Program-made: the position numbers and the translations under genes
Part shown: positions 18,440 through 49,991 of the stretch, piece after piece
Position numbering within the stretch: the first letter of the stretch is position 1
Layout of the letters: each line of letters opens with the position of its first letter
The notes under the pieces: generated by a model
Told to the model about the DNA's origin: nothing
The model's input: only the letters and a program-made list of their open reading frames with translations
Databases searched by the model: none
Assembly (NCBI GenBank): GCA_949282255.1
Contig: CASDPA010000009.1
Coordinates: 4,646 to 68,645, forward strand
Reading direction: 5' to 3'
Origin: an uncultured Spirochaetales bacterium
Lineage (GTDB): Bacteria; Spirochaetota; Spirochaetia; Sphaerochaetales; Sphaerochaetaceae
DNA length: 64,000 nucleotides

Positions 18440-18441
18440 AT

Positions 18442-18564
18442 ATTATGATTATTTTTTTATGATATTCGTATAGTCAAGTAGAAAACACGTTAATATGGTA
18501 AATATTGCTTTATTATTATGATTTGTGTTATGAAATAATAAAAATATACTTGATGTATCATAAT
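18442..18564. promoter_or_regulatory. repeated ATTATGAT motif, candidate operator set in the divergent promoter region
   Basis: ATTATGAT at 18442-18449 and 18515-18522, TTATGATA at 18458-18465, and the inverted copy ATCATAAT at 18557-18564. Confidence 0.3.
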
Positions 18565-18571
18565 ATTTTCC

Positions 18572-18600
18572 TTTACAGTTGAAAAAACTGCAAATATACT
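18572..18600 (+). promoter_or_regulatory. candidate sigma70-type promoter of the sugar ABC operon
   Basis: TTTACA (18572-18577), 17-nt spacer, TATACT (18595-18600), 30 nt upstream of the ATG at 18630. Confidence 0.35.
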
Positions 18601-18629
18601 GGGCTTGAAATCCAGAAAAGGAGGAGAAT

Positions 18630-19943: not shown

Positions 19944-19955
19944 TTTGTATTTGTC

Positions 19956-19980
19956 GGGCAGGCTTGTCCTGCCCTTTTTT
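19956..19980 (+). terminator. intra-operon stem-loop/terminator after the binding-protein gene
   Basis: GGGCAGG-CTTGT-CCTGCCC followed by T6. It sits between the SBP and permease genes, the usual arrangement for SBP over-expression. Confidence 0.75.
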
Positions 19981-19997
19981 GATAGGAGGAGAAAAGG

Positions 19998-20894: not shown

Positions 20895-20895
20895 T

Positions 20896-21741: not shown

Positions 21742-21753
21742 TAAGGAGATTCT

Positions 21754-22850: not shown

Positions 22851-22874
22851 CCGGACAGGTAAGGAGAATAGTAT

Positions 22875-23984: not shown

Positions 23985-24008
23985 TCCGCTGTAAGGCGGA
24001 TTTTTTTT
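23985..24008 (+). terminator. Rho-independent terminator
   Basis: TCCGC-TGTAAG-GCGGA followed by T8 (24001-24008). Confidence 0.7.
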
Positions 24009-24044: not shown

Positions 24045-24072
24045 TTGTCAACATACAGTATTATGTTAAAAT
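24045..24072 (+). promoter_or_regulatory. candidate extended -10 promoter for the lacI-led operon
   Basis: TTGTCA (24045-24050), 16-nt spacer ending in TGT, TAAAAT (24067-24072). Confidence 0.35.
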
Positions 24073-24116: not shown

Positions 24117-25136
24117 ATGAATGACGTCAAATTAAAGGATATAGCGGAGGAATCGGGGTTTTCGGTTTCCACCGTTTCCAGGATCCTTTCAGGGGATAGG
24201 TCGAGAAAGATGAAGGAGCAGACGATCCGCTGTGTGCTGGATACCGCAAAGCGTTTGGGTTATTACGAGGAAAAGAGAACCAGACTCTATAAGGCGGATG
24301 CGGCACTTAATATCGGGTGTCTTTTTGTATCGGATCATGAGAGTATTTTGTCCCCGTTTTTTTCCGAGGTTCTTTCCGGAATCAAGGAGGAGATTTCTCA
24401 GCTTTCGCAGTTCAGAAATATAACATTCGATCTGCTTCTTTGCGAAGATGATGATTTTTCCAGCAGAATCGAAAGCAAAAGTCTGGATGCCGCGGTCATT
24501 TTAGGACGTTCACGGTCTTCGACTTTGGAGCTGATCCGTACCAACATAGCAAATCTGATCTATGCGGGACTGAATCCCGTGGGGGGAATGGACGAGGTTC
24601 TTTGTGATGCGCGCGATGGGATGGCAGACGCCGTACGATATCTCAATGGGCTCGGACATACTAGGATCGCATTCATCGGACCTACGCCAAAACAGTCGGA
24701 TGTGCATAACGAATTCAGATATATCGGCTATCAGGAAGGCTTGGCGCTATGCGGACTTGAATTCGATGATAGGCTTGTGGAGGATGTCTATCTCTCGATC
24801 CAGGATGGCTATGAAGGAGCTTCTTCCCTTTTTTCCCGAATCAAACCCACAGCCGTACTGGCAGCCAACGATAACACCGCTCTTGGCGTGCTGAGCTACC
24901 TAAAGGATAAGGGTATCCTGGTCCCGGACGAGGTTTCCGTCGTAGGTTTCGACAATATAGAGGTCTCATCATTTTTCAAGCCGTCTCTCAGCACCTATGA
25001 TGTTCCGAAGAAAGAGCTGGGAAGATTTGCCGTCAAATTCCTTATAGACAGGATCGACAACCCAAGAAACTGTGATATCAGGATCAATGTTCCTTATAGA
25101 TTTATAAAAAGAGATTCTTCAGGGAGGATTTTATGA
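24117..25136 (+). CDS. LacI-family transcriptional regulator
   Basis: N-terminal HTH VKLKDIAEESGFSVSTVSRILSG plus a PBP1 sugar-binding domain. The stop overlaps the next ATG (ATGA). Confidence 0.9.
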   Translation: MNDVKLKDIAEESGFSVSTVSRILSGDRSRKMKEQTIRCVLDTAKRLGYYEEKRTRLYKADAALNIGCLFVSDHESILSPFFSEVLSGIKEEISQLSQFRNITFDLLLCEDDDFSSRIESKSLDAAVILGRSRSSTLELIRTNIANLIYAGLNPVGGMDEVLCDARDGMADAVRYLNGLGHTRIAFIGPTPKQSDVHNEFRYIGYQEGLALCGLEFDDRLVEDVYLSIQDGYEGASSLFSRIKPTAVLAANDNTALGVLSYLKDKGILVPDEVSVVGFDNIEVSSFFKPSLSTYDVPKKELGRFAVKFLIDRIDNPRNCDIRINVPYRFIKRDSSGRIL

Positions 25137-26287
25137 AGAATGTTCTATTCATGCATGGAGGAGGTCCGACAGCGGTATTGAACGCCAGTCTTGCCGGAGC
25201 CTTGAAAGCGCTTAGGGAAAGCAGCTTTAAGGGACAGACCCTTTTTGCCCGATTCGGTACGGGCGGACTTTTAAAAAAGGATGTGGGCATTATTCCAAAG
25301 CTCGATGATGAAGGCTTAGCTGTTCTTTCCCGTACTCCTGGATCCGCAATCGGAAGCGGTCGCGACCATTTGGAGGCGGATGATTACCTCTTACTTGCTG
25401 AAAATCTTTGTAATCTCGATGTCGGATACGTTGTGATCGGTGGTGGAAATGGCACAATGGATACCGCAAAAAAGCTTTCAAAAGCATGCCTTGGCAAAAA
25501 CATACGTGTGGTAGGGGTTCCTAAGACCATGGACAACGACCTTTCCGTGACCGACCACAGCCCAGGCTTTCTTTCGGCGGCCAGGTATCTTTCCGCTTCC
25601 GTTTCGGAGGTGCTGATGGATGTACGCGGACTTCCGATACATATGGTGGTCATAGAAGCTTTCGGCCGTAATGCCGGATGGATCACAGCTTCATCGTCTT
25701 TGGCCGAGGTATGCGGATACGGAGCTCCAGACATGCTTCTTTTGCCGGAGGTGCCTTTTGATGAGGAGGCATTTCTTTCCCGGGTTGAAGAGCTGCATAG
25801 GCAGAAGGGCTGTGGTGTCATAGTTGCCAGCGAGGGGCTGAGATATAAGGATGGAAATCCTATAGTCGAGCCTGTGTTCAAGGTCGGTAGAAGTGTGTAT
25901 TTCGGCGATGTTTCTTCCCATCTGTCACTCTTGATAACCAGAAAACTGGGGATAAAGAGCAGAAGTGAAAAACCGGGAATATTCGGAAGGTCCTCAATCG
26001 CATGGCAGAGCGGACTGGACCGTGAGGAAGCGTTTGAATGCGGCCGCGTTTCGATGCAGGCCGCATTGGAGGGGAATACAGGTGTGATGAGCATCATCAG
26101 GCGCACTTCAAACGGCCCGTATTCCTCCGAGATAGCGATAAGCGAAATCGTCGATGAGATATTGTGCGAGCGCTGCCTGCCGGAAGATATGATCGACAGG
26201 GAGAGGTTTCAGGTTACCGACAAATTCTTTTCATATAGCAAACCGTTGATGGAGAAGGATGACATAAGATATCTATCGTTTGTTTGA
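25133..26287 (+). CDS. PfkA-family phosphofructokinase-like sugar-phosphate kinase (atypical motifs)
   Basis: 384 aa. PFK blocks are present: HGGGPTAVLNA, VVIGGGNGTMDTA, VPKTMDNDL, IEAFGRNAGW and VASEG. Confidence 0.85.
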   Translation: MKNVLFMHGGGPTAVLNASLAGALKALRESSFKGQTLFARFGTGGLLKKDVGIIPKLDDEGLAVLSRTPGSAIGSGRDHLEADDYLLLAENLCNLDVGYVVIGGGNGTMDTAKKLSKACLGKNIRVVGVPKTMDNDLSVTDHSPGFLSAARYLSASVSEVLMDVRGLPIHMVVIEAFGRNAGWITASSSLAEVCGYGAPDMLLLPEVPFDEEAFLSRVEELHRQKGCGVIVASEGLRYKDGNPIVEPVFKVGRSVYFGDVSSHLSLLITRKLGIKSRSEKPGIFGRSSIAWQSGLDREEAFECGRVSMQAALEGNTGVMSIIRRTSNGPYSSEIAISEIVDEILCERCLPEDMIDRERFQVTDKFFSYSKPLMEKDDIRYLSFV

Positions 26288-26302
26288 GGTAAGGAGGTTT
26301 TG

Positions 26303-27118
26303 ATGGATATTAAATACTTTAAAAAGGAAGGGTGCGAACTTTTGGAAGGCAGGATTCCTGTAAAGCTTTTAGGAGATAGCGGTGAGGTCTTTTACGAGAT
26401 CGCACTTGAAATGGTAGCCGCGATCGAGGAAAACAATAAAAGGGGAGAGAAAACGGTTTTTATACTTCCTGTCGGTCCTGTGGGTCAGTATCCGATATTC
26501 GTCCGTCTTGTTAATGAAAAAAGAATCAGTCTCAGAAATTGCTGGTTCATAAACATGGATGAATATCTGACCGACGAAAAAAAATATATAGATAAGGACG
26601 ATCCTCTTTCTTTCCGAGGATTCATGGAGAGGAACGTTTATTCGAAAATCGATGCTGAATTGGTCAATCCTTCTTCCCAGAGAATATTTCCGGATCCGGA
26701 AGATCCTGAGAATATCGCCCGCATTGTCTCAAATCTTGGAAAGATAGATATCGCTTTTGGAGGCATAGGGATAAACGGACACCTGGCCTTCAATGAGGCG
26801 GAAGAGGTTTCCGCCGAGGAATTTTCATCCCGTACGACCAGGGTCCTTAAGATAAGCAGGGAGACCAGGGCTGTAAATTCGATCGGTGATTTGAACGGCG
26901 CCATAGATGCGATGCCTGTTTATGCTGTCACGATCGGAATGGATATGATATTGAAGGCAAAAAAGGTCAGGCTCGGAATATTCCGCCCATGGCATCGCGC
27001 AGTCCTTCGTCAGGCCATATTCTCCGAGATGGGAGGCCATTTCCCGGTAACCCTTCTTCAAAATCATCCTGATGCCTTGATCTATGTCAACAATATCGCA
27101 GCAGGGAGGCCGTTCTGA
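26303..27118 (+). CDS. glucosamine/galactosamine-6-phosphate deaminase-isomerase family protein (NagB/AgaI-like)
   Basis: Motifs MDEYL and GGIGINGHLAFNE. ATG 26303 lies 5 nt after AAGGAGG. Confidence 0.85.
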   Translation: MDIKYFKKEGCELLEGRIPVKLLGDSGEVFYEIALEMVAAIEENNKRGEKTVFILPVGPVGQYPIFVRLVNEKRISLRNCWFINMDEYLTDEKKYIDKDDPLSFRGFMERNVYSKIDAELVNPSSQRIFPDPEDPENIARIVSNLGKIDIAFGGIGINGHLAFNEAEEVSAEEFSSRTTRVLKISRETRAVNSIGDLNGAIDAMPVYAVTIGMDMILKAKKVRLGIFRPWHRAVLRQAIFSEMGGHFPVTLLQNHPDALIYVNNIAAGRPF

Positions 27119-28248
27119 TGGAGATAAAAGGAAGAATTCTTGCTCATGGGACAATCAAAAACAGGATACTCGGAACCGATGGTGGAATAATCTCATTCAT
27201 CAAGGATTATGATGGAAAAGAGAAGCTACCTCTTATTATCCCTGGATTTTTCGATGTGCACACCCATGGCGGAAATATGATAGATGTGAACCATATAACG
27301 GATATCAGTCAGGTTGACGAGCTTTCGGCATTCTTCGCATCCAAGGGTGTGACATCCTTTCTTCTTTCCGTAATGACCGATGAAATCGATAGGATGGAGG
27401 AGGTTGTTCTCATCCTTAGAAAAGCCATGGAAAAGGGGCTTCCCGGCGCAGCTCTCCGTGGTATTCATCTGGAAGGTCCGTTCCTTGCTCCCGAATACAA
27501 GGGGGCTATGCCGGAGTCCCTGCTTAGGGCGGGGGATCCTGCTTTGTTCGACCATTTCCAGTCCATATCGGGGAACAATATCCGATATATCACGGTCGCT
27601 CCCGAGCTGGATGGTATGATCGATATGATAAGGCATATCAGGAAAAACGGTGTGTGTCGTGTGAGCATGGGACATAGTGCGGCCGAATACGAGAAAGCGA
27701 TGGAGGCGGTTGAAGCCGGGGTCGTCTCCAGCACCCATACCTTCAATGCGATGAAGCTTTTCCATATGCATCGCCCTGCGATATCTGGAGCGGCTCTTGA
27801 AAGCGGGGATGTCTATTGTGAGACGATCGCCGATGGCTTCCATCTTCATCCTGCAACTGTGCGCCTTATATTGAAAACAAAAGGTTATGATAGGGTTGTG
27901 GCCATAACAGATTCCATTATGGCCGCCGGATTACCAGATGGGAAGTACAAGCTTGGCGTCAATGATGTCATTGTGAAGGATGGCGATGCGAAGCTTCCTG
28001 ATGGAGTGAGGGCCGGTAGTACTCTCACCATGGATAAGGTGCTCAGGAACCTTTTAAGGTTCACAGGAGAAGATGTTTCAAAGCTTTCCCGTCTTGTAAG
28101 TGCCAATGCCGCACGGATGCTCGGTTTTGAGGATACTGGTACTCTTGAGGTTGGAAAAAGAGCTGATTTCATTTTGCTTTCTTCTGAAAACGAAGTTGAA
28201 GAAACCTATGTATGTGGTAAAAAAGTCTATGAGAAAGGAGGTGTTTGA
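27118..28248 (+). CDS. N-acetylhexosamine-6-phosphate deacetylase (NagA/AgaA-like amidohydrolase)
   Basis: GFFDVHTHGG, IHLEGPFL, MGHS, THTFNAM and ITDS blocks typical of NagA. The start overlaps the upstream stop (TGATG). Confidence 0.88.
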   Translation: MEIKGRILAHGTIKNRILGTDGGIISFIKDYDGKEKLPLIIPGFFDVHTHGGNMIDVNHITDISQVDELSAFFASKGVTSFLLSVMTDEIDRMEEVVLILRKAMEKGLPGAALRGIHLEGPFLAPEYKGAMPESLLRAGDPALFDHFQSISGNNIRYITVAPELDGMIDMIRHIRKNGVCRVSMGHSAAEYEKAMEAVEAGVVSSTHTFNAMKLFHMHRPAISGAALESGDVYCETIADGFHLHPATVRLILKTKGYDRVVAITDSIMAAGLPDGKYKLGVNDVIVKDGDAKLPDGVRAGSTLTMDKVLRNLLRFTGEDVSKLSRLVSANAARMLGFEDTGTLEVGKRADFILLSSENEVEETYVCGKKVYEKGGV

Positions 28249-29402
28249 TGCTTGTTCCGCTTAAGCCGATTCTCGACGCGACGGAAAAGTACAACTATGC
28301 ACAGGGTGCGTTCAATGTCAATGCGGTAAGCCAGGCCGAGGCTGTTATAAAAATTCACGAGATATTCCGTTCTCCTGCTATTTTACAGGGAGCGGATCTT
28401 GCAAACGGATTCATGGGTGGCTGCAAGGATTTCATGCATGCCACCATAGAGGATAAGAGAAAGGGTGCGATGAACATCGCTTCTGCTGTAAAAAAATTTG
28501 CGGTGGAATCCCCGATCCCTGTCGCTCTTCATCTCGATCACGGAAGGGATTTTGAATCCGTGAAAGCCGCGATAGATGGTGGATACACATCCGTGATGAT
28601 CGATGGCTCGGCCCTGCCTTTCAAGGAAAATGTCGAACTTACCAGGGAAGTCGTCAAATACGCGCATCAAAGAGGTGTCAGCGTTGAAGGGGAGCTCGGG
28701 GTGCTGGCAGGTGTGGAGGATCACGTATTCAGCTCAAGCAGCACATATACGAATCCTTTGGATGCCATAGAGTTTTTCAAAAGCACCAAGGTTGACGCCC
28801 TCGCAATAAGTTACGGTACGAAGCACGGAGCCTCAAAAGGTGGCAATGCCAAGCTGAGAAAGGAGATTGCAATCGCCATAAAGGAGCTGATGAACTTTGA
28901 AGGTATCGAAGGGGCGCTCGTCTCCCATGGTTCTTCCACTGTGCCAAAGTATATAGTAGATGAGATAAACAGGTTGGGTGGAGATATCAAGAATGCCAAC
29001 GGAATTCCTTTGGAGCAGCTTGTGGAGGTTTCAAAGCTGGGAATCAGGAAGATAAATGTCGACACGGACATACGTCTTGCAGTTACAAGAAACATCCGGG
29101 AATATTTTATCAATGATCCTTCAGCCTGCATGAATGCGGATATCAACGGAATCTGGGAAATAATGAAGACCCATCCGGAGGCGTTCGATCCTCGGGTGTA
29201 TCTTACACCGATCATGGACAGTCTTATGTACGGCACAATAAAAAATGATGGTGAGCGTAGGATCAACGATTTGATTAAGACAGGTGTTATGGAAGCCGTT
29301 GGAACATTGGTCGTTGAATTTTCCCAGGTGGGTAAGGCTCCGCTTGTGGAAATTAGAACTCTTGATGAAATGGCTGAATATTATAGGAGCAGGGGAATAT
29401 GA
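28248..29402 (+). CDS. class II ketose-bisphosphate aldolase family protein (FBA/tagatose-bisphosphate aldolase-like, long form)
   Basis: Class II aldolase blocks: ALHLDHG..., SVMIDGS, VEGELG and HG(A/S)S. At about 384 aa it is roughly 100 aa longer than GatY/KbaY-type enzymes. Confidence 0.85.
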   Translation: MLVPLKPILDATEKYNYAQGAFNVNAVSQAEAVIKIHEIFRSPAILQGADLANGFMGGCKDFMHATIEDKRKGAMNIASAVKKFAVESPIPVALHLDHGRDFESVKAAIDGGYTSVMIDGSALPFKENVELTREVVKYAHQRGVSVEGELGVLAGVEDHVFSSSSTYTNPLDAIEFFKSTKVDALAISYGTKHGASKGGNAKLRKEIAIAIKELMNFEGIEGALVSHGSSTVPKYIVDEINRLGGDIKNANGIPLEQLVEVSKLGIRKINVDTDIRLAVTRNIREYFINDPSACMNADINGIWEIMKTHPEAFDPRVYLTPIMDSLMYGTIKNDGERRINDLIKTGVMEAVGTLVVEFSQVGKAPLVEIRTLDEMAEYYRSRGI

Positions 29403-30259
29403 AGAAACAACATATTTTTGTTAATTTCAAGCGTTTTGATATCCCATCTTCGCTTGGAGGAGTGAACAGGATCTCAAGTCCGGAGCTTTATGGAGAAACG
29501 ATTGTCCGCAGCACGCTCGAGGAGCTTGTAAAGTATGATCGCAGCCAAGTGTCATTCACTCATTTTTATCCCGAGGCACAGATTCCTGGTGCCGTAAAAG
29601 CTTTGAACGGTGATACCACGATCAAGATAGGCTGTCAGGGTGTTTATAAGAATGATGTCGCAATTGGAGGAAATTTCGGAGCCTTCACGACATTGCGTCC
29701 CGCCTCAATCATGAAGGCTTTTGGATGCTCGTCGACGATTATAGGCCACTGCGAGGAAAGAAACAGCATGAGGGATCTTCTTTCCCTTGCCGGCGTATCC
29801 GATTATTCCGCGGTGGATAAGACTTTGAACAAAGAGGTCCTGTCCGCCCTTGCTCAAAATCTGGAAGTGCTTTTCTGTGTGGGTGAACGTGATTTTGAGG
29901 TAAAAAAGTGGGATGATGTCATTACCAAGCAGCTGGAACTTGGCTTGTCTGGAGCAGATCTGAAAAATGTTGTCATAGCTTATGAGCCCATATGGTCGAT
30001 AGGCCCCGGTAAAACTCCTGCGGATGCACCGTATATCAAAAAGGTCGCTCAATTGATCAAAAGTGTCCTTGGATGTGATATCCCCGTCGTATATGGAGGA
30101 GGGTTGAAGGAGCAGAATGCAAAGATGCTGGCTTCGATCGAAGAAATCGACGGAGGGTTGATAGCGCTGACTCGTTTTTCTGGAGAGATTGGATTCTATT
30201 CAGAGGAGTATCTTAACATAATAAGGCTTTATATGGATAAAAAGGAGGAGTTGAAATGA
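29399..30259 (+). CDS. triosephosphate isomerase family protein (divergent paralog)
   Basis: TIM catalytic landmarks are retained: VNFKRF (Lys), IIGHCEERN (His; canonical GHSERR) and AYEPIWSIGPGKT (Glu). Phosphate loop YGGGL. It is 286 aa versus about 250 for housekeeping TIM. Confidence 0.8.
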   Translation: MKKQHIFVNFKRFDIPSSLGGVNRISSPELYGETIVRSTLEELVKYDRSQVSFTHFYPEAQIPGAVKALNGDTTIKIGCQGVYKNDVAIGGNFGAFTTLRPASIMKAFGCSSTIIGHCEERNSMRDLLSLAGVSDYSAVDKTLNKEVLSALAQNLEVLFCVGERDFEVKKWDDVITKQLELGLSGADLKNVVIAYEPIWSIGPGKTPADAPYIKKVAQLIKSVLGCDIPVVYGGGLKEQNAKMLASIEEIDGGLIALTRFSGEIGFYSEEYLNIIRLYMDKKEELK

Positions 30260-31701
30260 AACTTGATTTTGAATATGGCGCAGGGGTGATGTCTGCCAAT
30301 CTTCCCGATAATACGGATGTGTTCATCCCCGGGGTAACGGTTTCTGATCCTTTATGCATACCGGATGAACTCATAGAGGAGGAGACTCTAAAAAGCATCA
30401 GAAATCCCATTGGGATGGAAACGTTGGACAAGCTTGCTAAAAAAGGAAGCAAGGTCACGATCATTTTCCCCGACAGAGTCAAAGGAGGGGAGCAGGCAAA
30501 CAGCCATAGAAAGGTTTCCATACGTCTCATACTTCAGGAGTTATATAATGCCGGAGTAGAGAAGAAGGATATACTTCTCATCTGCTCCAACGGTCTTCAC
30601 AGGAAAAATACCGAGAAGGAGATAAGAGGGGTTTTGGGAAACGAGTTGTTCAATGAATTCTGGTATTCCCACCAGATCATAAACCATGATAGCGAGGATT
30701 ATGACCATCTTGTCGATCTTGGAGTGACAAAAAGAGGTGATCCCGTCCTCATGAATCGCTATGTTTACGAATCCGATGTCGCTATCTTGATCGGACATGT
30801 GCAGGGAAATCCGTATGGAGGCTATTCGGGAGGATACAAGCATTGTGCGACCGGCATAACACATTGGAAGAGTATAGCAAGCCATCACGTTCCATCCGTG
30901 ATGCATAGAAATGATTTCACACCGGTTTCAGGACATTCTCTCATGCGCACGAAGTTCAATGAGATTGGAATGCACATGGAAGAGAAAATGGGCAAGAAAT
31001 TCTTCTGCTGTGACGCTGTTCTGGATACGAAGAGCCGGCAGATATCCATCTATTCGGGATATGCTAAGGAGATGATGCCTCTATCGTGGATCGATGCCGA
31101 TAAAAGAACCTATGTGCATTGGGCGGAAAAGAAATATGACATACTTGTTTTTGGAATGCCGCAGTTCTTCCATTACGGCGAAGGCATGGGTACTAATCCG
31201 ATCATGCTCATGCAGGCGCTATCCGCCCAGGTGATAAGACACAAGAGGATTATGAGCGACAAATGTGTGATAATCTGCTCGTCGCTATGTAACGGATTCT
31301 TCAATGATTCCCTTTGGCCCTATACCAGGGAGATGTTCGAGATGTTCAAGCATGACGAGATGAACATCCTTCCCGATATGGACCGTCTAGGGGAGTATTT
31401 CGCAACAAACGAGGAGTATATCAGAAAATATAGGTTTGCAAATGCATTCCATCCTTTCCATGGCTTCTCGATGATAAGCTGCGGGCATATTGCCGAGATG
31501 AACACATCGGCAATATACATAGTTGGAGCAAAAGATCCTGGTTATGCGCGGGCCATGGGGCTTAAGACGCGCGCCACATTCGAGGAGGCTCTTGCCGATG
31601 CAATGAAAAAATTTACAGGTCCGGAACCAAACATATTGGCTCTTCCAATGACCTTTAAGACCGCAGCTGTGCACCTATGCATGAAGGATGACCAGCAGTA
31701 G
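30256..31701 (+). CDS. LarA-family (DUF2088) nickel-pincer-cofactor-dependent racemase/epimerase homolog
   Basis: 481 aa with SNGLHRKNT, GNPYGGYSGGYKH and a His pair 15-16 residues after that Lys. ATGA overlap with the TIM-like gene. Confidence 0.85.
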   Translation: MKLDFEYGAGVMSANLPDNTDVFIPGVTVSDPLCIPDELIEEETLKSIRNPIGMETLDKLAKKGSKVTIIFPDRVKGGEQANSHRKVSIRLILQELYNAGVEKKDILLICSNGLHRKNTEKEIRGVLGNELFNEFWYSHQIINHDSEDYDHLVDLGVTKRGDPVLMNRYVYESDVAILIGHVQGNPYGGYSGGYKHCATGITHWKSIASHHVPSVMHRNDFTPVSGHSLMRTKFNEIGMHMEEKMGKKFFCCDAVLDTKSRQISIYSGYAKEMMPLSWIDADKRTYVHWAEKKYDILVFGMPQFFHYGEGMGTNPIMLMQALSAQVIRHKRIMSDKCVIICSSLCNGFFNDSLWPYTREMFEMFKHDEMNILPDMDRLGEYFATNEEYIRKYRFANAFHPFHGFSMISCGHIAEMNTSAIYIVGAKDPGYARAMGLKTRATFEEALADAMKKFTGPEPNILALPMTFKTAAVHLCMKDDQQ

Positions 31702-31726
31702 GCAATCATTTTTTCAACCAGGTTTT

Positions 31727-31759
31727 CCCCCTTTGTCCGTACAAAGGGGAATTTTTTTT
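31727..31759 (+). terminator. Rho-independent terminator ending the seven-gene operon
   Basis: CCCCCTTTGT-CCGT-ACAAAGGGG followed by AATTTTTTTT. Confidence 0.85.
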
Positions 31760-31867: not shown

Positions 31868-32668
31868 GTGGCTGAAAAGTCGACAAGGAAAAAGGAGGGG
31901 ATTCTTTCCGAAAAAGGGAAAAGCCGTGTATGGCTGCTTATTTCCTTTTTGGTTGCAATAGGGGTTTGGACGGTGCTTTCCGTCTTGCCGAAAACCAGCA
32001 GATCCTTTCCTAATATCATAGTTACGTTTTCACAGATTCCTGTGATGATTGAACGCGGGGTGCTTTTTAAAGACCTTGCATCTTCCCTGATCAGTGTTTC
32101 CGCCGGCTATGCTCTTGGATTTGTAATCGCATTGCCTGTTGCAATACTTATGGCATGGTACCGTCCTGTAAGGAATATCATAGAGCCATGGATCCAGTTC
32201 ATCAGAAACATCCCGCCTCTTGCCTATGTTCCGCTCATTGTTATCGCGGCAGGTGTCGGGCGCAAGCCGCAGATCATCGTCATCACGATCGCCACGTTCC
32301 TTATAATGTGCATAACGATATACCAGGGAATAATCAATATCGATGAGACGCTTATCAAGGCGGCACGGGTGCTGGGAGCAAAGGACCGCGATATATTCCT
32401 GAGAGTTCTTGCTCCGGCGTCCCTTCCGTTTATTCTGACTGCAATCAGGCTTGGTGCGTCGGTTGCTCTGACAACGCTCATTGCAGCTGAGTCCACAGGA
32501 GCTTTCGCCGGCCTTGGAATGAGGATAAGAAGCTTGAATAATAACTTTGAGACGGCTCCGATGCTCTTATACATAATCATAATTGGTGTGATCGGCATCA
32601 CTATCGAAAAACTGATCAAATTGCTTGAAAGGAAGTTGACGGGATGGCAGGACAAGAGGGAAATATAA
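31868..32668 (+). CDS. ABC permease, NitT/TauT (SsuC-like) family
   Basis: 266 aa with a GTG start 6 nt after AAGGAGG. 6 TM, with EAA-like loop KAARVLGAKDRDIFLRVLAPASLP. Confidence 0.88.
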   Translation: MAEKSTRKKEGILSEKGKSRVWLLISFLVAIGVWTVLSVLPKTSRSFPNIIVTFSQIPVMIERGVLFKDLASSLISVSAGYALGFVIALPVAILMAWYRPVRNIIEPWIQFIRNIPPLAYVPLIVIAAGVGRKPQIIVITIATFLIMCITIYQGIINIDETLIKAARVLGAKDRDIFLRVLAPASLPFILTAIRLGASVALTTLIAAESTGAFAGLGMRIRSLNNNFETAPMLLYIIIIGVIGITIEKLIKLLERKLTGWQDKREI

Positions 32669-33435
32669 AATTAAAGATCGATAACGTTAAAAAGTCTTAT
32701 CAGGGTAGGACCGGAGAGGTGATAGCCCTTAATGGCGTGAATCTCGATATAAAGGAAAACGAATTTGTCACGGTGGTGGGACCTTCCGGTTGTGGCAAGT
32801 CTACATTGCTGAATATTATTGCAGGGCTTTTGGAGCCGACAAGTGGAAAAGTCATATGCAACGGAGTGGAAGTGAGGGGTACCGGACCTGACAGAGGAGT
32901 GGTTTTTCAGCAGTATGCGCTCTTCCCCTGGCTGACCGTGATCAAGAATGTCATGTTTGGTCTGAACATGAAAGGAATAAAAGGAAAAGAGGCCGAGGAC
33001 ATCGCAATGAAATATATTAAGATGGTCGATCTCGAGAAATTCCGCGATCATTATCCTAAGGAACTTTCCGGAGGTATGAAGCAGCGCGTGGCGATAGCGC
33101 GGGCCTATGCGGCCAATCCCGAGGTGTTGCTGATGGATGAACCTTTCGGGGCTCTTGACGCACAGACCAGAACGCAGCTTCAGCAGGAGCTTTTGGATAC
33201 TTGGGAAAGGGAAGTCAAGACTTGCTTTTTCATCACTCATGATGTTGACGAGGCTTTGATTCTTGGGCAGAGGGTTGTAATAATGTCCGCCCGTCCGGGA
33301 AGAATCAAAACGATAGTCGATGTCGATATCCCGTATCCTAGAGATCAGGAGACAAAGATGAGCCCCCGCTTTCTGGAACTGAAGAATTTGATTTGGTCCC
33401 AGGTATATCAGGAATACCTGGAAGTAAAGAGATAA
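32644..33435 (+). CDS. ABC ATP-binding protein, NitT/TauT (SsuB/TauB-like) family
   Basis: Walker A GPSGCGKST, signature LSGGMKQRV, Walker B LLMDEPFGALD. Confidence 0.88.
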   Translation: MAGQEGNIKLKIDNVKKSYQGRTGEVIALNGVNLDIKENEFVTVVGPSGCGKSTLLNIIAGLLEPTSGKVICNGVEVRGTGPDRGVVFQQYALFPWLTVIKNVMFGLNMKGIKGKEAEDIAMKYIKMVDLEKFRDHYPKELSGGMKQRVAIARAYAANPEVLLMDEPFGALDAQTRTQLQQELLDTWEREVKTCFFITHDVDEALILGQRVVIMSARPGRIKTIVDVDIPYPRDQETKMSPRFLELKNLIWSQVYQEYLEVKR

Positions 33436-33453
33436 TACAAAAGGAGTATTCAT

Positions 33454-34443
33454 ATGAAAAAAGTTTTTACATTGGCTCTTGTAGCCCTCATCGCCATGGC
33501 TGTTGTTTTTGCTGGTGGCTCCAGCGAAAAAGCTTCCGGCCTTCAGAAGGTCAGGGTCGCCTACATGACCAACTATGCATCATTGTGTTCTGTTGTGGCA
33601 GGCATTGAGACAGGTGCGTTCGCCGATCAGGGAATCCAAATCGAGCTTGTGGAATTCGCAGATGGTCCGACGATTATCGCCGCAATGGAAAGCGGATCGA
33701 TCGATATCGGATATATCGGACACGGCGCCCATAAGCTCGCCATAAACGGAAGATGTAAGATTTTTGCTTTCAGCCACGTCGGAAACGGTGATGCGGTAAT
33801 CGGACTCAAGAGCCATGGAGTGACCGAGGATCCAGCTTCATTAAAGGGCAAAAAGGTCGGATATGCATCTGGAACCTCCAGCGAGCTCATCCTCCGCTGG
33901 GCTCTTGAAGAAGCAGGTCTTTCCTTTGATGATATCGTAGCGTACGAGATGGATGCATCTGCAATCACAAGCGCGATGACATCCGGTAGCCTCGATGCAT
34001 GTGCTACCTGGTCGCCTGCGACATTCACAATTCTTGATGCGATCGGCAGTGATGCCTTCACCATCGCAAACAATGTGACCTTCAGCGACCGCAGCGCTTC
34101 CGTCGCTTCCTGGATCGTGATGAATGATTGGGCGGAAAAAAATCATGATCTCCTTATCAGATTCACAAAGGCGCTTTATGCCGGCATGGACTATAGGGCG
34201 GCAAATATCGAAGATACGGCAAAATGGGTTTCAACAGTCCTTGGTTCGGATTACGATACCATCTATGCTCAGCGTGGAGATGCGCAATGGATTACAAGTC
34301 AGCAGTTGCTCAGCGACATTGCTGATGGTACAATAGAAAAGCTGTACGAGGTTCAGAAGTCAAGCTTCGGGGCTGAAGTCGATCAGAACACTCCAATATC
34401 GGCTTATGTTCTCTTTGACGTGATGCTTGAAGCAGGCAAGTGA
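33454..34443 (+). CDS. ABC substrate-binding protein, NMT1/SsuA/TauA-like
   Basis: 329 aa with a signal peptide ending VVFAGGSSEK. Its NMT1-like fold is inferred from composition and from its position after the SsuBC-like genes. Confidence 0.8.
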   Translation: MKKVFTLALVALIAMAVVFAGGSSEKASGLQKVRVAYMTNYASLCSVVAGIETGAFADQGIQIELVEFADGPTIIAAMESGSIDIGYIGHGAHKLAINGRCKIFAFSHVGNGDAVIGLKSHGVTEDPASLKGKKVGYASGTSSELILRWALEEAGLSFDDIVAYEMDASAITSAMTSGSLDACATWSPATFTILDAIGSDAFTIANNVTFSDRSASVASWIVMNDWAEKNHDLLIRFTKALYAGMDYRAANIEDTAKWVSTVLGSDYDTIYAQRGDAQWITSQQLLSDIADGTIEKLYEVQKSSFGAEVDQNTPISAYVLFDVMLEAGK

Positions 34444-34506: not shown

Positions 34507-35994
34507 ATGCTTTTCATACTTGTGCTGATGATTTTTTCCGCATCCCTTCTTTTTTTTCTTATAAACAGGAACAGACGTAGCATATTGATCCTTCTGTCCA
34601 GTCTGAGCCTGGCTTTATTTATTATCGGAATACTTTTATACATATCAAAAAAGGGTGGAATATCCTCCCAGATGAGTATGATACTCTTCGGGTTCAAGCG
34701 GGTAAGGACCGCCATGCAATATACCCGGTTCACACTTGACCAGCTTGGCTATTTTCTGGCTTTCGGCCGTTACAGTTTTCCGTTTTTCCTTCTGCTTACA
34801 TGCCTGGACATGTCCTACGCGGATTTTGCGATAAAAGCGGAGAAGAAGTTTTATCTATTCCTTATACTTCCCATTGTTTCGCTTATCCTATATTATCCCT
34901 CCGTTTTCAAGTTCTTTGCAAAGGAAAGCGACGGGCTGGTCCGGTTCATGCTTATCTTTTCCCGCAGTTGGATTTTTTTATATGTTATTGCTTCCATGGT
35001 GATGCTTATTTGGGAGTTTTTTTCCATTACTATGGGATTTTTCCGCAAGCGTTTTCTTTTTAAAAGTCTACTAATGATATCTCTGGCCATGATTTATTGT
35101 TTTTACGCACCACAGGATCCTGCGCAGGTATATCTTTTTTATCGCAATAACTATATGTGGATGCTAGGCTTGTGGTATTTGTCATCCGCCTTCAATTCCC
35201 CCTTGTACATAATAGTGATGTCGGGAAGCATAATCTTTGCGGTTGTCGGTTTTTTTTCACTTCTAAGATATGTGAGTTTGAAATTCGACGAGAGCCGGCA
35301 GGATGTGGTTCTGCGGCAAAAGGCGCAGGATGCGAGCATCGGCATAAGCATGTTCAACCATAGCACTAAAAACGAGCTTTTAGCTTCTTCGATACTTCTT
35401 GCGAGGCTCGAGAAGAAATTTCCCGGAGATGAGGATATTTCCAAGCTCAAGGGGATCAATACCAAGCTTATGCAGAAAATGGAAAGTCTGTACAAGTCCT
35501 CTAAAAATGAACAGTACCGCCTTGTTCCGGAAAACCTGGAAAAGATAATCGAGGAATCCGTCAAGCGGGCATTGGTTCATAACTCCGATTCGGATTATTC
35601 GATTTTGATGGAAGATCGATCCATTTACGTGCTTGCTGATTTTTATCCTCTTTCGGAAGCTCTTTCAAATCTTATGGAGAATGCTTGGGAGGCTCAAAGG
35701 GCGAATGATATTTTTGACAGCATCAAAGTAGAGGTTCGTCGTGAACGTCTTTGGATTTCGGTAACCATAACCGATAAAGGCGGAGGGATATCTTCAAAGG
35801 ATGCCAAAAGAATATGGGAACCGTTCTATTCGACAAAGAATAGTTCAAAAAACTGGGGAATGGGGATGTATTATTCGAGAAAGGTAATAAAGAGCCATTT
35901 GGGCTCTGTTCGTTTTGAAAGTCCCAGACAGGGAGGTACCAGGTTTGTGGTGCTTCTGCCGAAAATTGGAGCAAGGGAGGTTACGGATGATTAA
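34507..35994 (+). CDS. polytopic sensor histidine kinase (GHKL ATPase; HPK10-like H-box)
   Basis: About 270 aa of 6-7 TM helices. Then the candidate H-box FNHSTKNEL, N-box NLMENAWEA, G1 DKGGGI and G2 GMGMY. Confidence 0.85.
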   Translation: MLFILVLMIFSASLLFFLINRNRRSILILLSSLSLALFIIGILLYISKKGGISSQMSMILFGFKRVRTAMQYTRFTLDQLGYFLAFGRYSFPFFLLLTCLDMSYADFAIKAEKKFYLFLILPIVSLILYYPSVFKFFAKESDGLVRFMLIFSRSWIFLYVIASMVMLIWEFFSITMGFFRKRFLFKSLLMISLAMIYCFYAPQDPAQVYLFYRNNYMWMLGLWYLSSAFNSPLYIIVMSGSIIFAVVGFFSLLRYVSLKFDESRQDVVLRQKAQDASIGISMFNHSTKNELLASSILLARLEKKFPGDEDISKLKGINTKLMQKMESLYKSSKNEQYRLVPENLEKIIEESVKRALVHNSDSDYSILMEDRSIYVLADFYPLSEALSNLMENAWEAQRANDIFDSIKVEVRRERLWISVTITDKGGGISSKDAKRIWEPFYSTKNSSKNWGMGMYYSRKVIKSHLGSVRFESPRQGGTRFVVLLPKIGAREVTDD

Positions 35995-49978: not shown

Positions 49979-49991
49979 GGGGGAGGAAGAA

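What the first reader, a model, noticed from the sequence alone, without database searches (positions are those of the whole stretch)
24117..31759. Seven-gene coupled operon joining an amino-sugar deacetylase/deaminase, a PFK-like kinase, a class II aldolase, a TIM paralog and a LarA-family enzyme
Seen:
- The genes are lacI, PFK-like, NagB-like, NagA-like, class II aldolase, TIM-like and LarA-like.
- They are joined by ATGA/TGATG overlaps or gaps under 15 nt.
- A promoter-like element bounds the operon on one side and a strong terminator (31727-31759) on the other.

Established: deacetylase, then deaminase/isomerase, then kinase, then ketohexose-1,6-bisphosphate aldolase is the logic of the GalNAc/GalN (Aga) pathway. 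That route runs via tagatose-6-P and tagatose-1,6-bisphosphate to DHAP + GAP.

The pathway as assembled here has no characterised equivalent that I know of:
- The kinase is a PfkA-family protein with non-canonical motifs, rather than the housekeeping PfkA.
- The aldolase is about 100 aa longer than GatY/KbaY.
- A dedicated TIM paralog is included.
- A nickel-pincer LarA homolog, normally a 2-hydroxyacid racemase/epimerase, is co-translated.
- No PTS or other transporter and no sugar kinase for the free sugar are encoded in the operon.

Inference: this is a catabolic route for an unusual (possibly acidic or epimeric) N-acetyl-amino sugar, with the LarA enzyme performing a stereo-inversion that funnels it into the aldolase branch. 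The actual substrate cannot be read from the sequence.
Basis: partly seen in the sequence, partly recalled or inferred. Interest (0 to 1): 0.72.

Follow-up and report, generated by a model that had tools for sequence, protein, structure and literature searches.

The report
Orphan nickel-enzyme sugar-breakdown gene cluster
This gut spirochaete operon is a widely conserved second copy of upper glycolysis plus amino-sugar enzymes, built around an odd triose-phosphate-isomerase paralog and a nickel-cofactor enzyme whose structure is known but whose job is not, and its transporter neighbours suggest it breaks down a sulfur-tagged sugar.

Summary
The seven coupled genes are real. They run LacI, PfkA-family kinase, NagB-like, NagA, long class II aldolase, TIM paralog, LarA homolog, with a promoter-like site and terminator at the stated places.

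The association is not chance. In 49 related loci with full flanks, LarAH is joined by the TIM paralog in 41, the aldolase in 39 and the kinase in 32. These loci span Spirochaetales and many Bacillota.

The LarA homolog is about 80% identical to LarA_Bw and LarA_Sp (PDB 9Q3J, 9Q2U). That is the published single-histidine subfamily, with solved structures, an unknown substrate and a glycolysis-like context already noted (Gatreddi 2025).

A TauA/SsuA-type ABC transporter and a two-component system lie directly downstream and travel with the cluster, inside it in several Firmicutes. TauE exporters and sulfatases also recur. The Aga/tagatose reading has no specific support.

The kinase, NagB-like and TIM-like proteins keep their catalytic residues but have remodelled phosphate pockets.

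Best reading (inferred, about 0.4): a parallel glycolysis for a 6-anionic, probably 6-sulfo, hexosamine or hexose. The TIM paralog and LarAH would process the non-DHAP fragment. The substrate is unproven.

The parts
23985..24000 (+). terminator-like stem-loop ending the upstream GH172 operon; marks the 5' boundary
24045..24072 (+). sigma-70-like promoter (TTGTCA-16-TAAAAT, extended -10 TG). It encloses an 18-bp palindrome AACATACAGTATTATGTT (24050-24067), a candidate LacI operator.
   Evidence: the perfect palindrome occurs once in the window
24117..25136 (+). LacI-family repressor (339 aa)
   Evidence: LacI-family gene present in 33 of 49 full-flank related loci
25133..26287 (+). PfkA-family kinase (384 aa), PRK14072 clade. 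Catalytic residues are kept. D103N, G124K, R162H and H249I/L differ from E. coli PfkA. The phosphoryl donor and sugar substrate are unresolved.
26300..27118 (+). NagB-like deaminase/isomerase paralog (about 271 aa, probable start ATG 26303). D72, H143 and E148 are kept; the phosphate-binding loop, R172 and K208 are replaced.
27118..28248 (+). NagA-type N-acetylhexosamine-6-X deacetylase (376 aa)
28245..29402 (+). long class II ketose-bisphosphate aldolase (384-385 aa, probable start ATG 28248). The NVDTDIR motif, with the Arg that binds the distal anion, is kept.
29399..30259 (+). TIM paralog (286 aa). Catalytic Asn/Lys/His/Glu and loop 6 are kept. Loop 7 is YGGS->YGGG and loop 8 is VGGASL->IALTRF, invariant in the family.
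   Evidence: adjacent to LarAH in 41 of 49 full loci and in 8 of 9 testable metagenome loci
30256..31701 (+). LarA homolog (481 aa) of the single-histidine LarA_Sp/LarA_Bw subfamily, with D73, K76, H115, N185, K195, H211, H306, Y307, H402 and R432
   Evidence: PMC12611868
31728..31759 (+). intrinsic terminator (9-bp stem, T run)
31868..32668 (+). NitT/TauT-family ABC permease (TauC/SsuC-like); conserved partner of the cluster
32644..33435 (+). ABC ATPase (TauB/NtrCD-like)
33454..34443 (+). NMT1/SsuA/TauA-type solute-binding protein. The nearest solved relatives are TauA and SsuA.
34507..35994 (+). multi-TM sensor histidine kinase; co-occurs with the cluster in 19 of 80 loci
35987..36667 (+). 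LuxR/NarL-type response regulator (start taken from the gene call in L084)

Best explanation
The operon is one copy of a widespread, horizontally mobile catabolic module of host-gut anaerobes. It is a regulated 'parallel upper glycolysis' for a hexosamine or hexose that enters the cell already carrying an anionic group at C6. That group is most likely a sulfate ester (for example mucin or keratan-derived GlcNAc-6-sulfate) or a sulfonate, not a phosphate added by a kinase.

Proposed steps, all inferred:
1. The TauABC/SsuABC-like transporter encoded just downstream imports the sugar, under control of the HK/RR pair.
2. NagA removes the acetyl group.
3. The NagB-like enzyme deaminates or isomerises the product to the ketose-6-X.
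4. The PfkA-family kinase phosphorylates C1.
5. The long class II aldolase splits the product into DHAP and a C3 aldehyde that carries X.
6. The TIM paralog and the nickel-pincer LarA homolog, the invariant core of the module, convert that C3-X fragment by enediol chemistry followed by a cofactor-held hydride transfer, into a usable or exportable product.
7. In relatives, TauE/SafE or CHR-type anion exporters remove the sulfur anion or the sulfonated end product.

LacI represses the operon through the palindrome that overlaps the promoter.

Shown: the gene content, the translational coupling, the conservation of the module and of its transporter partners, retention of catalytic residues, remodelled phosphate pockets, and membership of the LarA homolog in the structurally solved single-His subfamily.

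Inferred: the identity of X, the direction of flux, and the reactions of the TIM paralog and LarAH.
For: 1. Conservation. Of 49 loci with at least 8 kb on both sides, 41 have the TIM paralog, 39 the aldolase, 32 the kinase, 24 the NagB-like gene and 21 NagA. They come from Spirochaetales, Lachnospiraceae, Oscillospiraceae, Clostridiaceae, Erysipelotrichaceae and others.
2. Reciprocal test. Of 11 metagenome loci found with the TIM paralog (39-58% identity), 8 of the 9 with downstream sequence have LarAH adjacent. The ninth has LacI + TIM-like + a NitT/TauT ABC transporter.
3. Transporter. The window genes 31868-34443 match TauC/SsuC, TauB and the SsuA family, and the nearest solved SBPs are TauA and SsuA. 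The same genes lie inside the LarAH gene run in L029, L033, L062, L071, L081 and L093. This transporter type is present in 25 of 49 full loci. TauE/SafE is present in 16 of 80 loci and a CHR transporter in 2. An NMT1-SBP-fused chemoreceptor occurs in L062 and L069.
4. No recurrent free-sugar kinase. A PTS appears in only a few of the 80 loci. The four PTS-type loci lack the PFK, as expected if phosphorylation at C1 is the only one needed.
5. Phosphate pockets are remodelled while catalytic residues are kept, family-wide. PFK: R162H, H249I/L. NagB-like: TGGT loop, R172 and K208 replaced. TIM-like: loops 7 and 8 replaced.
6. Sulfatase-family genes lie inside or beside LarAH runs in L013, L063, L048, L021 and L038.
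7. Precedents. Sulfo-EMP2 uses a PF00365 kinase and a PF01116 aldolase on 6-sulfo sugars (PMC10665668). Ordinary NagA deacetylates GlcNAc-6-sulfate with only a 7-fold higher Km (PMC6016474).
8. LarAH keeps all NPN-binding and subfamily active-site residues. LarC-like genes sit in or near two related loci.
Against: 1. No enzyme here has been assayed, and transporter family membership does not fix the ligand. The SsuA_fam score is below its cut-off (112.7 against 163.5).
2. About half of the full-flank loci show no NitT/TauT transporter within 10 kb. One near-identical seven-gene operon (L082/L083) has only a TctABC system nearby.
3. The aldolase keeps the Arg that binds the distal phosphate in class II FBAs, whereas SqiA sulfonate aldolases lose it. 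It is also closer to Giardia FBA (203 bits) than to SqiA (about 113 bits).
4. NagA passes the GlcNAc-6-P equivalog cut-off.
5. Some clusters use a PTS, which would be compatible with ordinary sugar phosphates.
6. The 316.5-Da ligand co-purified with LarA_Sp matches neither GlcNAc-6-S nor GlcNAc-6-P (about 301 Da by my own arithmetic).
7. Sulfatases in some clusters could mean that the sulfate is removed first.
8. The many loci are related by descent and by horizontal transfer, so they are not independent.
Confidence: 0.4

Rival explanations
1. The substrate is an epimeric N-acetyl amino-sugar phosphate (ManNAc, GalNAc, AllNAc-type or similar). LarAH acts at hexose level as a GalE-like epimerase: it transiently oxidises one secondary alcohol, and a single catalytic base is enough. 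This converts the sugar to the gluco/fructo configuration that the NagA/NagB/PFK/aldolase line can use. The TIM paralog is simply a dedicated triose-phosphate isomerase.
For: A single catalytic His with a tightly bound hydride carrier fits a GalE-type mechanism (PMC12611868; my inference). PGI-like, PMI-like, NagB-like and aldose-1-epimerase genes alternate among clusters, suggesting several hexose entry points. The aldolase keeps its distal-anion Arg, and NagA passes its equivalog cut-off. PTS-type clusters exist.
Against: Clusters consisting only of LacI + TIM-like + LarAH, or of HIBADH + LarAH + ABC + TauE, have no hexose-processing enzymes. The TIM paralog, not an isomerase or deacetylase, is the gene locked to LarAH, and its phosphate-gripper loops are changed. 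No kinase for the free sugar recurs.
Confidence: 0.2
2. This is an ordinary GlcNAc-6-phosphate catabolic operon (NagA/NagB) fused to spare isozymes of PFK, FBA and TIM. LarAH has an unrelated or accessory role, such as lactate or other hydroxy-acid handling.
For: NagA, PFK and aldolase pass family-level cut-offs. Gatreddi et al. describe the neighbours simply as glycolytic enzymes.
Against: The NagB-like and TIM-like proteins fall far below their equivalog cut-offs, and their substrate-anion sites are rebuilt family-wide. LarA_Sp shows no lactate racemase activity. The TIM-LarAH pairing is conserved across phyla, often with overlapping stop and start codons. No GlcNAc PTS or kinase is present.
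Confidence: 0.12
3. The anionic group is a carboxylate. The substrate is an (N-acetyl)hexosaminuronic or hexuronic acid, cleaved to DHAP plus tartronate semialdehyde. The TIM paralog and LarAH (a 2-hydroxy-acid enzyme family) isomerise or epimerise that C3 hydroxy-acid, and a HIBADH-type reductase does so in some relatives.
For: All known LarA substrates are 2-hydroxy acids (PMC11770544). The nearest NCBIfam model is the gluconate/mannonate-epimerase branch. HIBADH neighbours score equally as tartronate-semialdehyde reductase and as sulfolactaldehyde reductase. A TctABC carboxylate transporter lies near L082/L083.
Against: The recurrent transporter is of the sulfonate, taurine or nitrate type rather than a carboxylate type. 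TauE, CHR and sulfatase neighbours point to sulfur anions. The carboxylate-binding residues of classical LarA are replaced in this subfamily.
Confidence: 0.1
4. The module runs in the biosynthetic or gluconeogenic direction. It would turn an imported C3 compound into hexosamine phosphate through the reversible PFK and aldolase.
For: PRK14072-clade PFKs are annotated as PPi-dependent, a reaction that is readily reversible (the reversibility is my own knowledge). An FBPase neighbour is reported for B. wexlerae.
Against: NagA deacetylation is effectively irreversible. LacI-type repression, sugar-type isomerases, mutarotases and sulfatases are hallmarks of catabolic loci.
Confidence: 0.03

Closest known systems
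LarA_Sp / LarA_Bw single-histidine LarA subfamily (PDB 9Q2U, 9Q3K, 9Q3J; Gatreddi et al., Protein Sci 2025, PMC12611868)
   Same: The window protein aligns end to end (E = 1e-257 to 3e-262, about 80% identity). It has the same Asp73, Lys76, His115, Asn185, Lys195, His211, His306, Tyr307, His401 and Arg431 equivalents, and the same kind of glycolysis-like gene neighbourhood.
   Different: There is nothing structural to distinguish it. What is added here is the wider neighbourhood: the TauABC-like transporter, HK/RR, TauE, sulfatases, minimal and PTS variants, and the near-obligate TIM paralog partner. The substrate is unknown in both cases.
Sulfoglycolytic Embden-Meyerhof-Parnas pathway, variant 2 (sulfo-EMP2: SqvD, SqiK, SqiA, plus YihU or SlaB)
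   Same: It follows the same logic of glycolytic paralogs working on a sugar whose C6 anion is not phosphate. Both use a PF00365 kinase and a PF01116 class II aldolase. TauE-type exporters and HIBADH-type reductases occur in relatives.
   Different: There is no sulfoquinovosidase (GH31) and no SqvD-type (PF02952) isomerase. NagA plus NagB-like, PGI-like or PMI-like enzymes take that place. The aldolase is not SqiA-like and keeps the Arg that SqiA lacks. Neither a TIM paralog nor LarAH is part of any described sulfoglycolysis.
GlcNAc-6-P (NagA/NagB) and GalNAc/GalN (Aga) amino-sugar pathways
   Same: A deacetylase, then a deaminase/isomerase, then a kinase, then an aldolase. NagA meets the TIGR00221 cut-off.
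   Different: The NagB-like protein is far below the NagB and AgaI cut-offs, with a rebuilt phosphate site. There is no PTS, NagK, AgaS or KbaZ. The aldolase is FBA-like rather than GatY/KbaY-like.
Canonical triose-phosphate isomerase and TIM-family tetrulose-phosphate isomerases (from memory: EryH/LerI type)
   Same: The catalytic Asn, Lys, His and Glu and the lid loop 6 are conserved.
   Different: Loop 7 Ser and the loop 8 Gly-Gly, which grip the phosphate, are replaced by Gly and by Ala-Leu-Thr-Arg in every family member. There is a 30-aa N-terminal elaboration. The protein is always partnered with LarAH or a TauABC-like transporter.

Membership tests
LarA superfamily, single-His (LarA_Sp/LarA_Bw) subfamily | Lar_N domain and full-length similarity to solved members | tested here: met
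   PF09861 E = 2e-40; 9q3j 873.7 bits and 9q2u 858.6 bits over residues 1-480
LarA superfamily, single-His (LarA_Sp/LarA_Bw) subfamily | NPN-anchoring Lys, Ni-ligand His, ribose Asp, and Lys replacing the phosphate/carboxylate Arg | tested here: met
   K195, H211, D73 and K76 are present, matching the residue list in PMC12611868
LarA superfamily, single-His (LarA_Sp/LarA_Bw) subfamily | First catalytic His present, second replaced by Asn | tested here: met
   H115 and N185
Canonical LarA 2-hydroxy-acid racemase/epimerase | Two catalytic histidines (His108 and His174 of LarA_Lp) | tested here: not met
   The second His is Asn185. All NCBIfam LarA equivalogs are far below cut-off, for example 112.6 against 460.
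NPN-dependent enzyme (any) | larB/larC/larE cofactor-synthesis genes in the genome | not testable with these tools
   None in the 64-kb window. LarC-like N-termini lie in or near two related loci, L080 and L061. The rest of the genome is not available.
NagA (GlcNAc-6-P deacetylase) | Score above the equivalog cut-off | tested here: met
   TIGR00221 280.2 bits against 225.65. The nature of the C6 anion cannot be read from this.
NagB / AgaI (hexosamine-6-P deaminase/isomerase) | Equivalog score, and the phosphate-binding loop TGGT, Arg172 and Lys208 | tested here: not met
   TIGR00502 100 against 236.9; PRK09762 (AgaI) 33.9 against 271; no Pfam hit. The loop is VG-P, R172 is lost and K208 is His, while catalytic D72, H143 and E148 are kept.
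Aga (GalNAc/GalN) pathway | AgaS (SIS) deaminase, KbaY/KbaZ tagatose-bisphosphate aldolase pair, Aga PTS | tested here: not met
   None is found in the window or among recurrent neighbours. The aldolase scores best on FBA models.
PPi-dependent phosphofructokinase | Asp104 / Lys124 signature (E. coli numbering) and F6P 6-phosphate ligands R162, R243, H249 | tested here: inconclusive
   The PRK14072 subfamily cut-off is passed. K124 is present but position 104 is Gly and D103 is Asn. R243 and R252 are kept, R162 is His and H249 is Ile/Leu, in 49 of 49 or nearly all family members.
Triose-phosphate isomerase | Catalytic Lys/His/Glu plus phosphate-gripper loops 6-8, and an equivalog score | tested here: not met
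   The catalytic residues and loop 6 are present, but loops 7 and 8 are replaced and all NCBIfam TIM models are below cut-off, for example TIGR00419 65.3 against 130.6.
Sulfo-EMP2 sulfoglycolysis | PF00365 SF kinase and PF01116 SFP aldolase | tested here: inconclusive
   Both Pfam families are present. The aldolase is nearer Giardia FBA than SqiA and keeps the Arg that SqiA replaces. No SqiK sequence was available for comparison.
Sulfo-EMP2 sulfoglycolysis | Sulfoquinovosidase (GH31 YihQ) and SqvD (PF02952) isomerase in the cluster | tested here: not met
   Neither is among the annotated window genes or the recurrent neighbour families.
NitT/TauT (taurine/sulfonate/nitrate) ABC transporter | TauC/SsuC-type permease, TauB-type ATPase, NMT1/SsuA/TauA-type SBP | tested here: met
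   Family-level matches. All equivalog cut-offs are missed, so the ligand is undetermined.

The most novel reading that the evidence does not exclude
The TIM paralog and LarAH together form a new desulfation or desulfonation module. The TIM paralog makes the enediolate of the C3 aldehyde (glyceraldehyde-3-sulfate or sulfolactaldehyde) and lets the sulfur oxyanion leave, as methylglyoxal synthase does with phosphate. The single-His LarAH then acts as a nickel-pincer 'glyoxalase': it takes the hydride from C1 of the hydrated 2-oxoaldehyde and returns it to C2, giving lactate. This would let gut fermenters use all six carbons of 6-sulfo sugars such as mucin GlcNAc-6-sulfate without a sulfatase. 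TauE or CHR exporters would remove sulfate or sulfite. It would also give the NPN cofactor its first non-racemase, intramolecular redox-isomerase role.
Probability: 0.12. Interest if true: 0.9.

Novelty: new variant of a known kind. Interest (0 to 1): 0.6.

Why it matters
The single-histidine LarA subfamily is a structurally solved enzyme with no known reaction. Relatives were confirmed at 526 places in species-representative genomes, and it is abundant in human and animal gut metagenomes (one 90% cluster alone has 2,371 member sequences). This analysis fixes its invariant partner, a TIM paralog with rebuilt anion-gripping loops. It also identifies a recurrent TauABC-like importer, anion exporters and sulfatases. 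Together these narrow the substrate search from 'some carbohydrate' to a short, purchasable or synthesisable list: 6-sulfo hexosamines and hexoses, and C3 sulfo carbonyl compounds. If the sulfo-sugar reading holds, it would reveal how common gut Firmicutes and spirochaetes consume sulfated host glycans or dietary sulfosugars, with consequences for mucus turnover and for sulfite, sulfate and H2S supply. It would also extend nickel-pincer chemistry beyond hydroxy-acid racemisation.

Tried and rejected
1. Link to the two upstream GH172 (DUF2961) genes and their CUT1 ABC transporter. Rejected: there was no GH172 hit in any of the 80 related loci, not even in L001 at 96% identity, and a terminator separates them.
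2. Shared LacI operator in front of the ABC operon. The promoter palindrome has no counterpart there.
3. DUF4867 (the 'SqvB/SftX' family of sulfoglycolysis clusters) next to LarAH in L068. Confirmed as DUF4867. However, it lies beside two ~500-aa ORFs that I did not annotate; if these are the FGGY-kinase and isomerase partners typical of the largest, non-sulfo DUF4867 group (one FGGY hit among the neighbours), it belongs to an adjacent operon. I treat it as weak evidence.
4. Guess that L012:6617-7876 is LarC. Wrong: it is a guanine-deaminase-like amidohydrolase. LarC-like N-termini were then found by motif in L080 and L061.
5. Mass matching of the 316.5-Da LarA_Sp adduct. GlcNAc-6-P and GlcNAc-6-S (about 301 Da) do not fit. 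N-acetylglucosaminate-6-P (317.2 Da) and NaMN minus water (317.2 Da) fit numerically, but this is untestable arithmetic from memory and I did not use it.
6. Literature searches for LarA or nickel-pincer together with sulfoquinovose, and for catabolism of GlcNAc-6-sulfate, GlcN-6-sulfate or fructose-6-sulfate. No relevant paper was found.
7. Search for larB/C/E, nickel transport or extra pathway genes in the rest of the window. None was found.
8. Reaching more distant LarAH relatives for context. The tools return only the closest 80-120 hits, so members with 30-60% identity could not be examined, apart from the few that came in through the TIM-paralog scan (L094-L096).

Full report
**1. The observation**

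The window holds seven co-directional ORFs at exactly the stated coordinates. Profile searches assign them as follows:

| Coordinates | Length | Assignment | Key scores |
|---|---|---|---|
| 24117-25136 | 339 aa | LacI family | Pfam LacI, Peripla_BP_1/3 |
| 25133-26287 | 384 aa | PfkA family | PRK14072 334.8 bits, cut-off 273 |
| 26300-27118 | 272 aa | NagB-like | no Pfam hit; TIGR00502 100 bits, cut-off 236.9 |
| 27118-28248 | 376 aa | NagA | TIGR00221 280.2 bits, cut-off 225.65 |
| 28245-29402 | 385 aa | class II aldolase | ketose-bisphosphate aldolase subfamily cut-off passed |
| 29399-30259 | 286 aa | TIM-like | Pfam TIM 113.9 bits; below every NCBIfam TIM cut-off |
| 30256-31701 | 481 aa | LarA-like | only the Lar_N domain matches |

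The junctions read from the DNA are three ATGA overlaps, two TGATG overlaps and one 15-nt spacer with AGGAGG. A promoter-like site with an extended -10 lies at 24045-24072. Stem-loop plus T-run terminators bracket the unit at 23985-24000 and 31728-31749. An 18-bp palindrome, AACATACAGTATTATGTT, lies between the -35 and -10 elements and occurs perfectly only once in the window. It is a plausible LacI operator.

**2. Source organism**

The best genome matches are uncultured gut Spirochaetales and Sphaerochaetaceae, with LarA homologs at 86-96% identity. Identical copies occur on ENA and Logan contigs with the same gene order as the window.

**3. The LarA homolog is a known orphan**

It aligns end to end, at roughly 80% identity, with PDB 9Q3J (Blautia wexlerae) and 9Q2U/9Q3K (Streptococcus plurextorum). 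These come from Gatreddi et al. 2025 (PMC12611868). That paper defines a LarA subfamily in which the second catalytic histidine is an invariant asparagine.

- The proteins form octamers.
- LarA_Sp binds the nickel-pincer nucleotide covalently.
- LarA_Sp shows no lactate racemase activity.
- LarA_Sp co-purifies with an unidentified 316.5-Da adduct and a partly reduced cofactor.

The authors note neighbouring 'glycolytic' genes and speculate on carbohydrate metabolism.

The window protein carries every hallmark residue: D73, K76, H115, N185, K195, H211, H306, Y307, H402 and R432. The LarA part of the finding is therefore a new member of a described family whose function is unsolved. The statement that the assembly has no described equivalent is only half true.

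**4. Conservation of the neighbourhood**

A scan of one genome per species confirmed a relative at 526 places. I analysed the 80 closest, all at 75% identity or more, from Spirochaetales and from many Bacillota families. I searched their ORFs with the window proteins, then clustered the ORFs of all loci to find further recurrent neighbour families.

Counts in the 49 loci with at least 8 kb on both sides:

| Neighbour of LarAH | Loci (of 49) |
|---|---|
| TIM paralog | 41 |
| long class II aldolase | 39 |
| LacI-family regulator | 33 |
| PfkA-family kinase | 32 |
| NagB-like | 24 |
| NagA | 21 |

The TIM paralog almost always lies directly upstream of LarAH, frequently with overlapping stop and start codons.

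I also ran the reciprocal test by scanning metagenomes with the TIM paralog. It gave 11 true relatives at 39-58% identity. Of the 9 with downstream sequence, 8 have LarAH next door. The ninth (L096) has LacI, the TIM paralog and an ABC transporter of the type described in section 5.

The architecture is modular.

- **Core:** TIM paralog plus LarAH.
- **Cleavage unit:** kinase plus aldolase.
- **Entry enzymes, which vary:** NagA with NagB-like, a PGI-like protein (15 loci), a PMI-like cupin (10 loci) and an aldose-1-epimerase (11 loci).

Other variants exist.

- **Minimal:** LacI, TIM paralog and LarAH only (L006, L008, L011, L026).
- **No TIM:** in five loci LarAH follows a HIBADH-type dehydrogenase, next to a TauA-type ABC transporter. 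Four of these also carry an alkaline-phosphatase-superfamily protein, and TauE lies close by in three (L058, L061, L072).
- **PTS type:** four Erysipelotrichaceae-type loci use a PTS, a split transketolase and a short GatY-like aldolase, and lack the kinase.

**5.

Right after the terminator, the window encodes an ABC permease, an ATPase and a solute-binding protein (31868-34443). A multi-TM histidine kinase and a LuxR-type response regulator follow (34507-36667).

The transporter belongs to the NitT/TauT family. Its best models are TauC, SsuC, TauB and the SsuA family. The nearest solved binding proteins are TauA and SsuA.

These five genes recur with the cluster in both phyla. In several Firmicutes they lie inside the same gene run:

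- PFK-TIM-LarAH-permease-ATPase-SBP-NagB-FBA-NagA in L029 and L033.
- permease-ATPase-SBP-NagB-NagA-HK-RR-PFK-FBA-TIM-LarAH-TauE in L062 and L071.

The most abundant metagenomic variant of the LarA homolog (2,371 member sequences) has such a transporter on both sides.

Overall, 25 of 49 full loci carry this transporter type. TauE/SafE anion exporters occur in 16 of 80 loci. A CHR (chromate/sulfate-type) pair occurs in two loci, and a chemoreceptor fused to the same SBP fold in two.

Sulfatase-family genes sit inside LarAH runs in L013 and L063, and close by in L048, L021 and L038. The L048 protein is a close homolog (447 bits) of the sulfatase at 54473-56212 in this window.

By contrast, no hexokinase, ROK kinase or PfkB kinase recurs. 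The only ROK proteins carry an HTH domain, which suggests regulators.

**6. Residue-level checks**

I aligned each family of LarAH-linked paralogs with the E. coli enzyme (sequences from memory, consistent with the PDB alignments).

- **Kinase.** It keeps T125, D127, D129, R171, E222, R243 and R252. In essentially all 49 members D103 is Asn and G124 is Lys. The 6-phosphate ligands R162 and H249 are His and Ile/Leu.
- **NagB-like.** It keeps catalytic D72, H143 and E148. It replaces the phosphate loop TGGT, R172 and K208 with a conserved FRxWHR element.
- **TIM paralog.** It keeps Asn, Lys, His, Glu and lid loop 6. It changes YGGS to YGGG and VGGASL to an invariant IALTRF.
- **Aldolase.** It is closest to Giardia class IIB FBA (203 bits) and not to the sulfonate-specific SqiA (about 113 bits). 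It keeps the NVDTDIR arginine that binds the distal anion.

Three of the four 'glycolytic' paralogs thus look catalytically competent but tuned to a different anionic handle. The aldolase gives no such signal.

**7. Most likely function**

The module has an anion-type importer and no free-sugar kinase. Its only phosphorylation is at C1, and in the PTS-type variants the PTS would supply that one. Anion exporters and sulfatases recur. The phosphate pockets are rebuilt.

Together these fit best a sugar that arrives with its own C6 anion. Sulfur anions are the obvious candidates. Two precedents support this:

- Sulfoquinovose is processed by exactly such paralogs (a PF00365 kinase and a PF01116 aldolase) in sulfo-EMP2 (PMC10665668).
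- Ordinary NagA already accepts GlcNAc-6-sulfate with a 7-fold higher Km (PMC6016474).

Because NagA and NagB-type enzymes are frequent and the carriers are gut organisms, I favour 6-O-sulfated hexosamines from mucin, keratan sulfate or heparan sulfate. Sulfonated or otherwise anionic hexoses would be the alternatives in clusters that use PGI-like or PMI-like entry enzymes.

Aldol cleavage would give DHAP plus a C3 aldehyde that carries the anion. The invariant TIM-paralog/LarAH pair also occurs without any hexose enzymes, beside HIBADH or beside the transporter alone. Most economically, it is the unit that deals with that small fragment.

What it does chemically is unknown. Options:

- isomerisation followed by a stereochemical or redox-neutral rearrangement to an exported sulfonate;
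- or, more daringly, enediolate-driven loss of sulfate or sulfite followed by NPN-mediated conversion of the 2-oxoaldehyde to lactate (see the novel case).

I put the overall model at about 0.4, and within it the sulfur identity of the anion at roughly even odds.

**8. Rivals**

It is chemically attractive but does not explain the minimal and HIBADH-type clusters or the lock between the TIM paralog and LarAH.
- **Plain GlcNAc-6-P operon with spare isozymes**, 0.12. It conflicts with the divergent NagB-like and TIM-like proteins and with the cross-phylum coupling.
- **Carboxylate (aminuronic or uronic acid) version** giving tartronate semialdehyde, 0.1. It fits LarA's hydroxy-acid heritage and the HIBADH neighbours, but not the transporter, exporter and sulfatase pattern.
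- **Biosynthetic direction**, 0.03. Unlikely.

**9. Evidence against my own reading**

- Half of the full loci have no such transporter within 10 kb.
- L082/L083 carry the same seven-gene operon with only a TctABC system nearby.
- The SBP is below the SsuA family cut-off.
- The aldolase looks like a normal bisphosphate aldolase.
- Some clusters use a PTS.
- The 316.5-Da adduct matches none of my candidate intermediates.
- The loci share ancestry and horizontal transfer, so the counts overstate independent support.

**10. Novelty and interest**

The operon itself is a further example of a published but unsolved enzyme-context pair. New here are:

- the quantitative, reciprocal demonstration of the TIM-paralog/LarAH core;
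- the modular variants;
- the TauABC-like importer, HK/RR, TauE and sulfatase association;
- the family-wide remodelling of the phosphate pockets.

These turn an open question, what single-His LarA enzymes do, into a short list of testable substrates. I rate it a new variant of known kinds (amino-sugar catabolism, sulfoglycolysis-like parallel glycolysis and NPN enzymes), with interest 0.6.

Noticed in passing
window 17444-23966: A divergent GntR-HTH/periplasmic-binding-fold regulator, then a CUT1 ABC transporter (SBP and two permeases) and two tandem DUF2961/GH172 genes (323 and 363 aa). This is a separate oligosaccharide locus. It is not conserved next to the LarAH cluster in any of the 80 related loci.
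   Followed up: partly
window 6700-9264: An 854-aa fusion of a pyridine-nucleotide-disulfide oxidoreductase with a nitrite/sulfite-reductase (NIR_SIR, 4Fe-4S) module. It is a possible sulfite reductase, which is interesting if the nearby pathway releases sulfite.
   Followed up: no
window 54473-56212 (with 49418-54445): A sulfatase (579 aa, with a SGSH_C-like region) lies behind an AraC-type regulator and a CUT1 ABC transporter. Its close homolog (447 bits) sits about 2.5 kb from the LarAH cluster in locus L048.
   Followed up: partly
window 46982-49334: An IS21-type element (IstA-like transposase with a Mu-transposase C domain, plus IstB ATPase). It appears to be inserted just upstream of a truncated ABC permease ORF (49418-49978, 186 aa).
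   Followed up: no
window 36815-39223: A GH3 glycosidase with permuted domain order: the C-terminal domain and Fn3-like domain come before the N-terminal catalytic domain.
   Followed up: no
window 3415-5653: Memo-like, AMMECR1 and radical-SAM genes in a row (the 'AmmeMemoRadiSam' trio).
   Followed up: no
window 14889-17234 (- strand): A FeoA-FeoB fusion protein (781 aa), and nearby a FecCD/ABC/Peripla_BP_2 metal-chelate type transporter (9391-12035). No recognisable nickel transporter or larBCE genes were found in the window.
   Followed up: partly
L062:11572-13503 and L069: A methyl-accepting chemotaxis protein fused to an NMT1/TauA-type solute-binding domain, encoded right after LarAH. This implies chemotaxis towards the same ligand class as the transporter.
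   Followed up: no
L080:4851-5744 and L061:19101-20042: LarC-like (nickel-insertion, DUF111) N-terminal motif YLECxSGISGDM. In L080 the ORF lies directly upstream of NagB-like in the LarAH gene run.
   Followed up: partly
L081:4463-5629: A 388-aa protein without any Pfam hit, encoded between the short aldolase and the PFK in the most abundant metagenomic variant of the cluster. Small recurrent unknowns (clusters c57, 154 aa, and c84, 126 aa) follow TauE in several Lachnospiraceae loci.
   Followed up: no
L052, L058, L061, L072: A variant cluster without a TIM paralog: a 677-aa alkaline-phosphatase-superfamily protein (PF01663), a HIBADH-type dehydrogenase, LarAH, a divergent NMT1 SBP and doubled ABC permease/ATPase genes. 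TauE lies within 10 kb in L058, L061 and L072 (in the gene run only in L072).
   Followed up: partly
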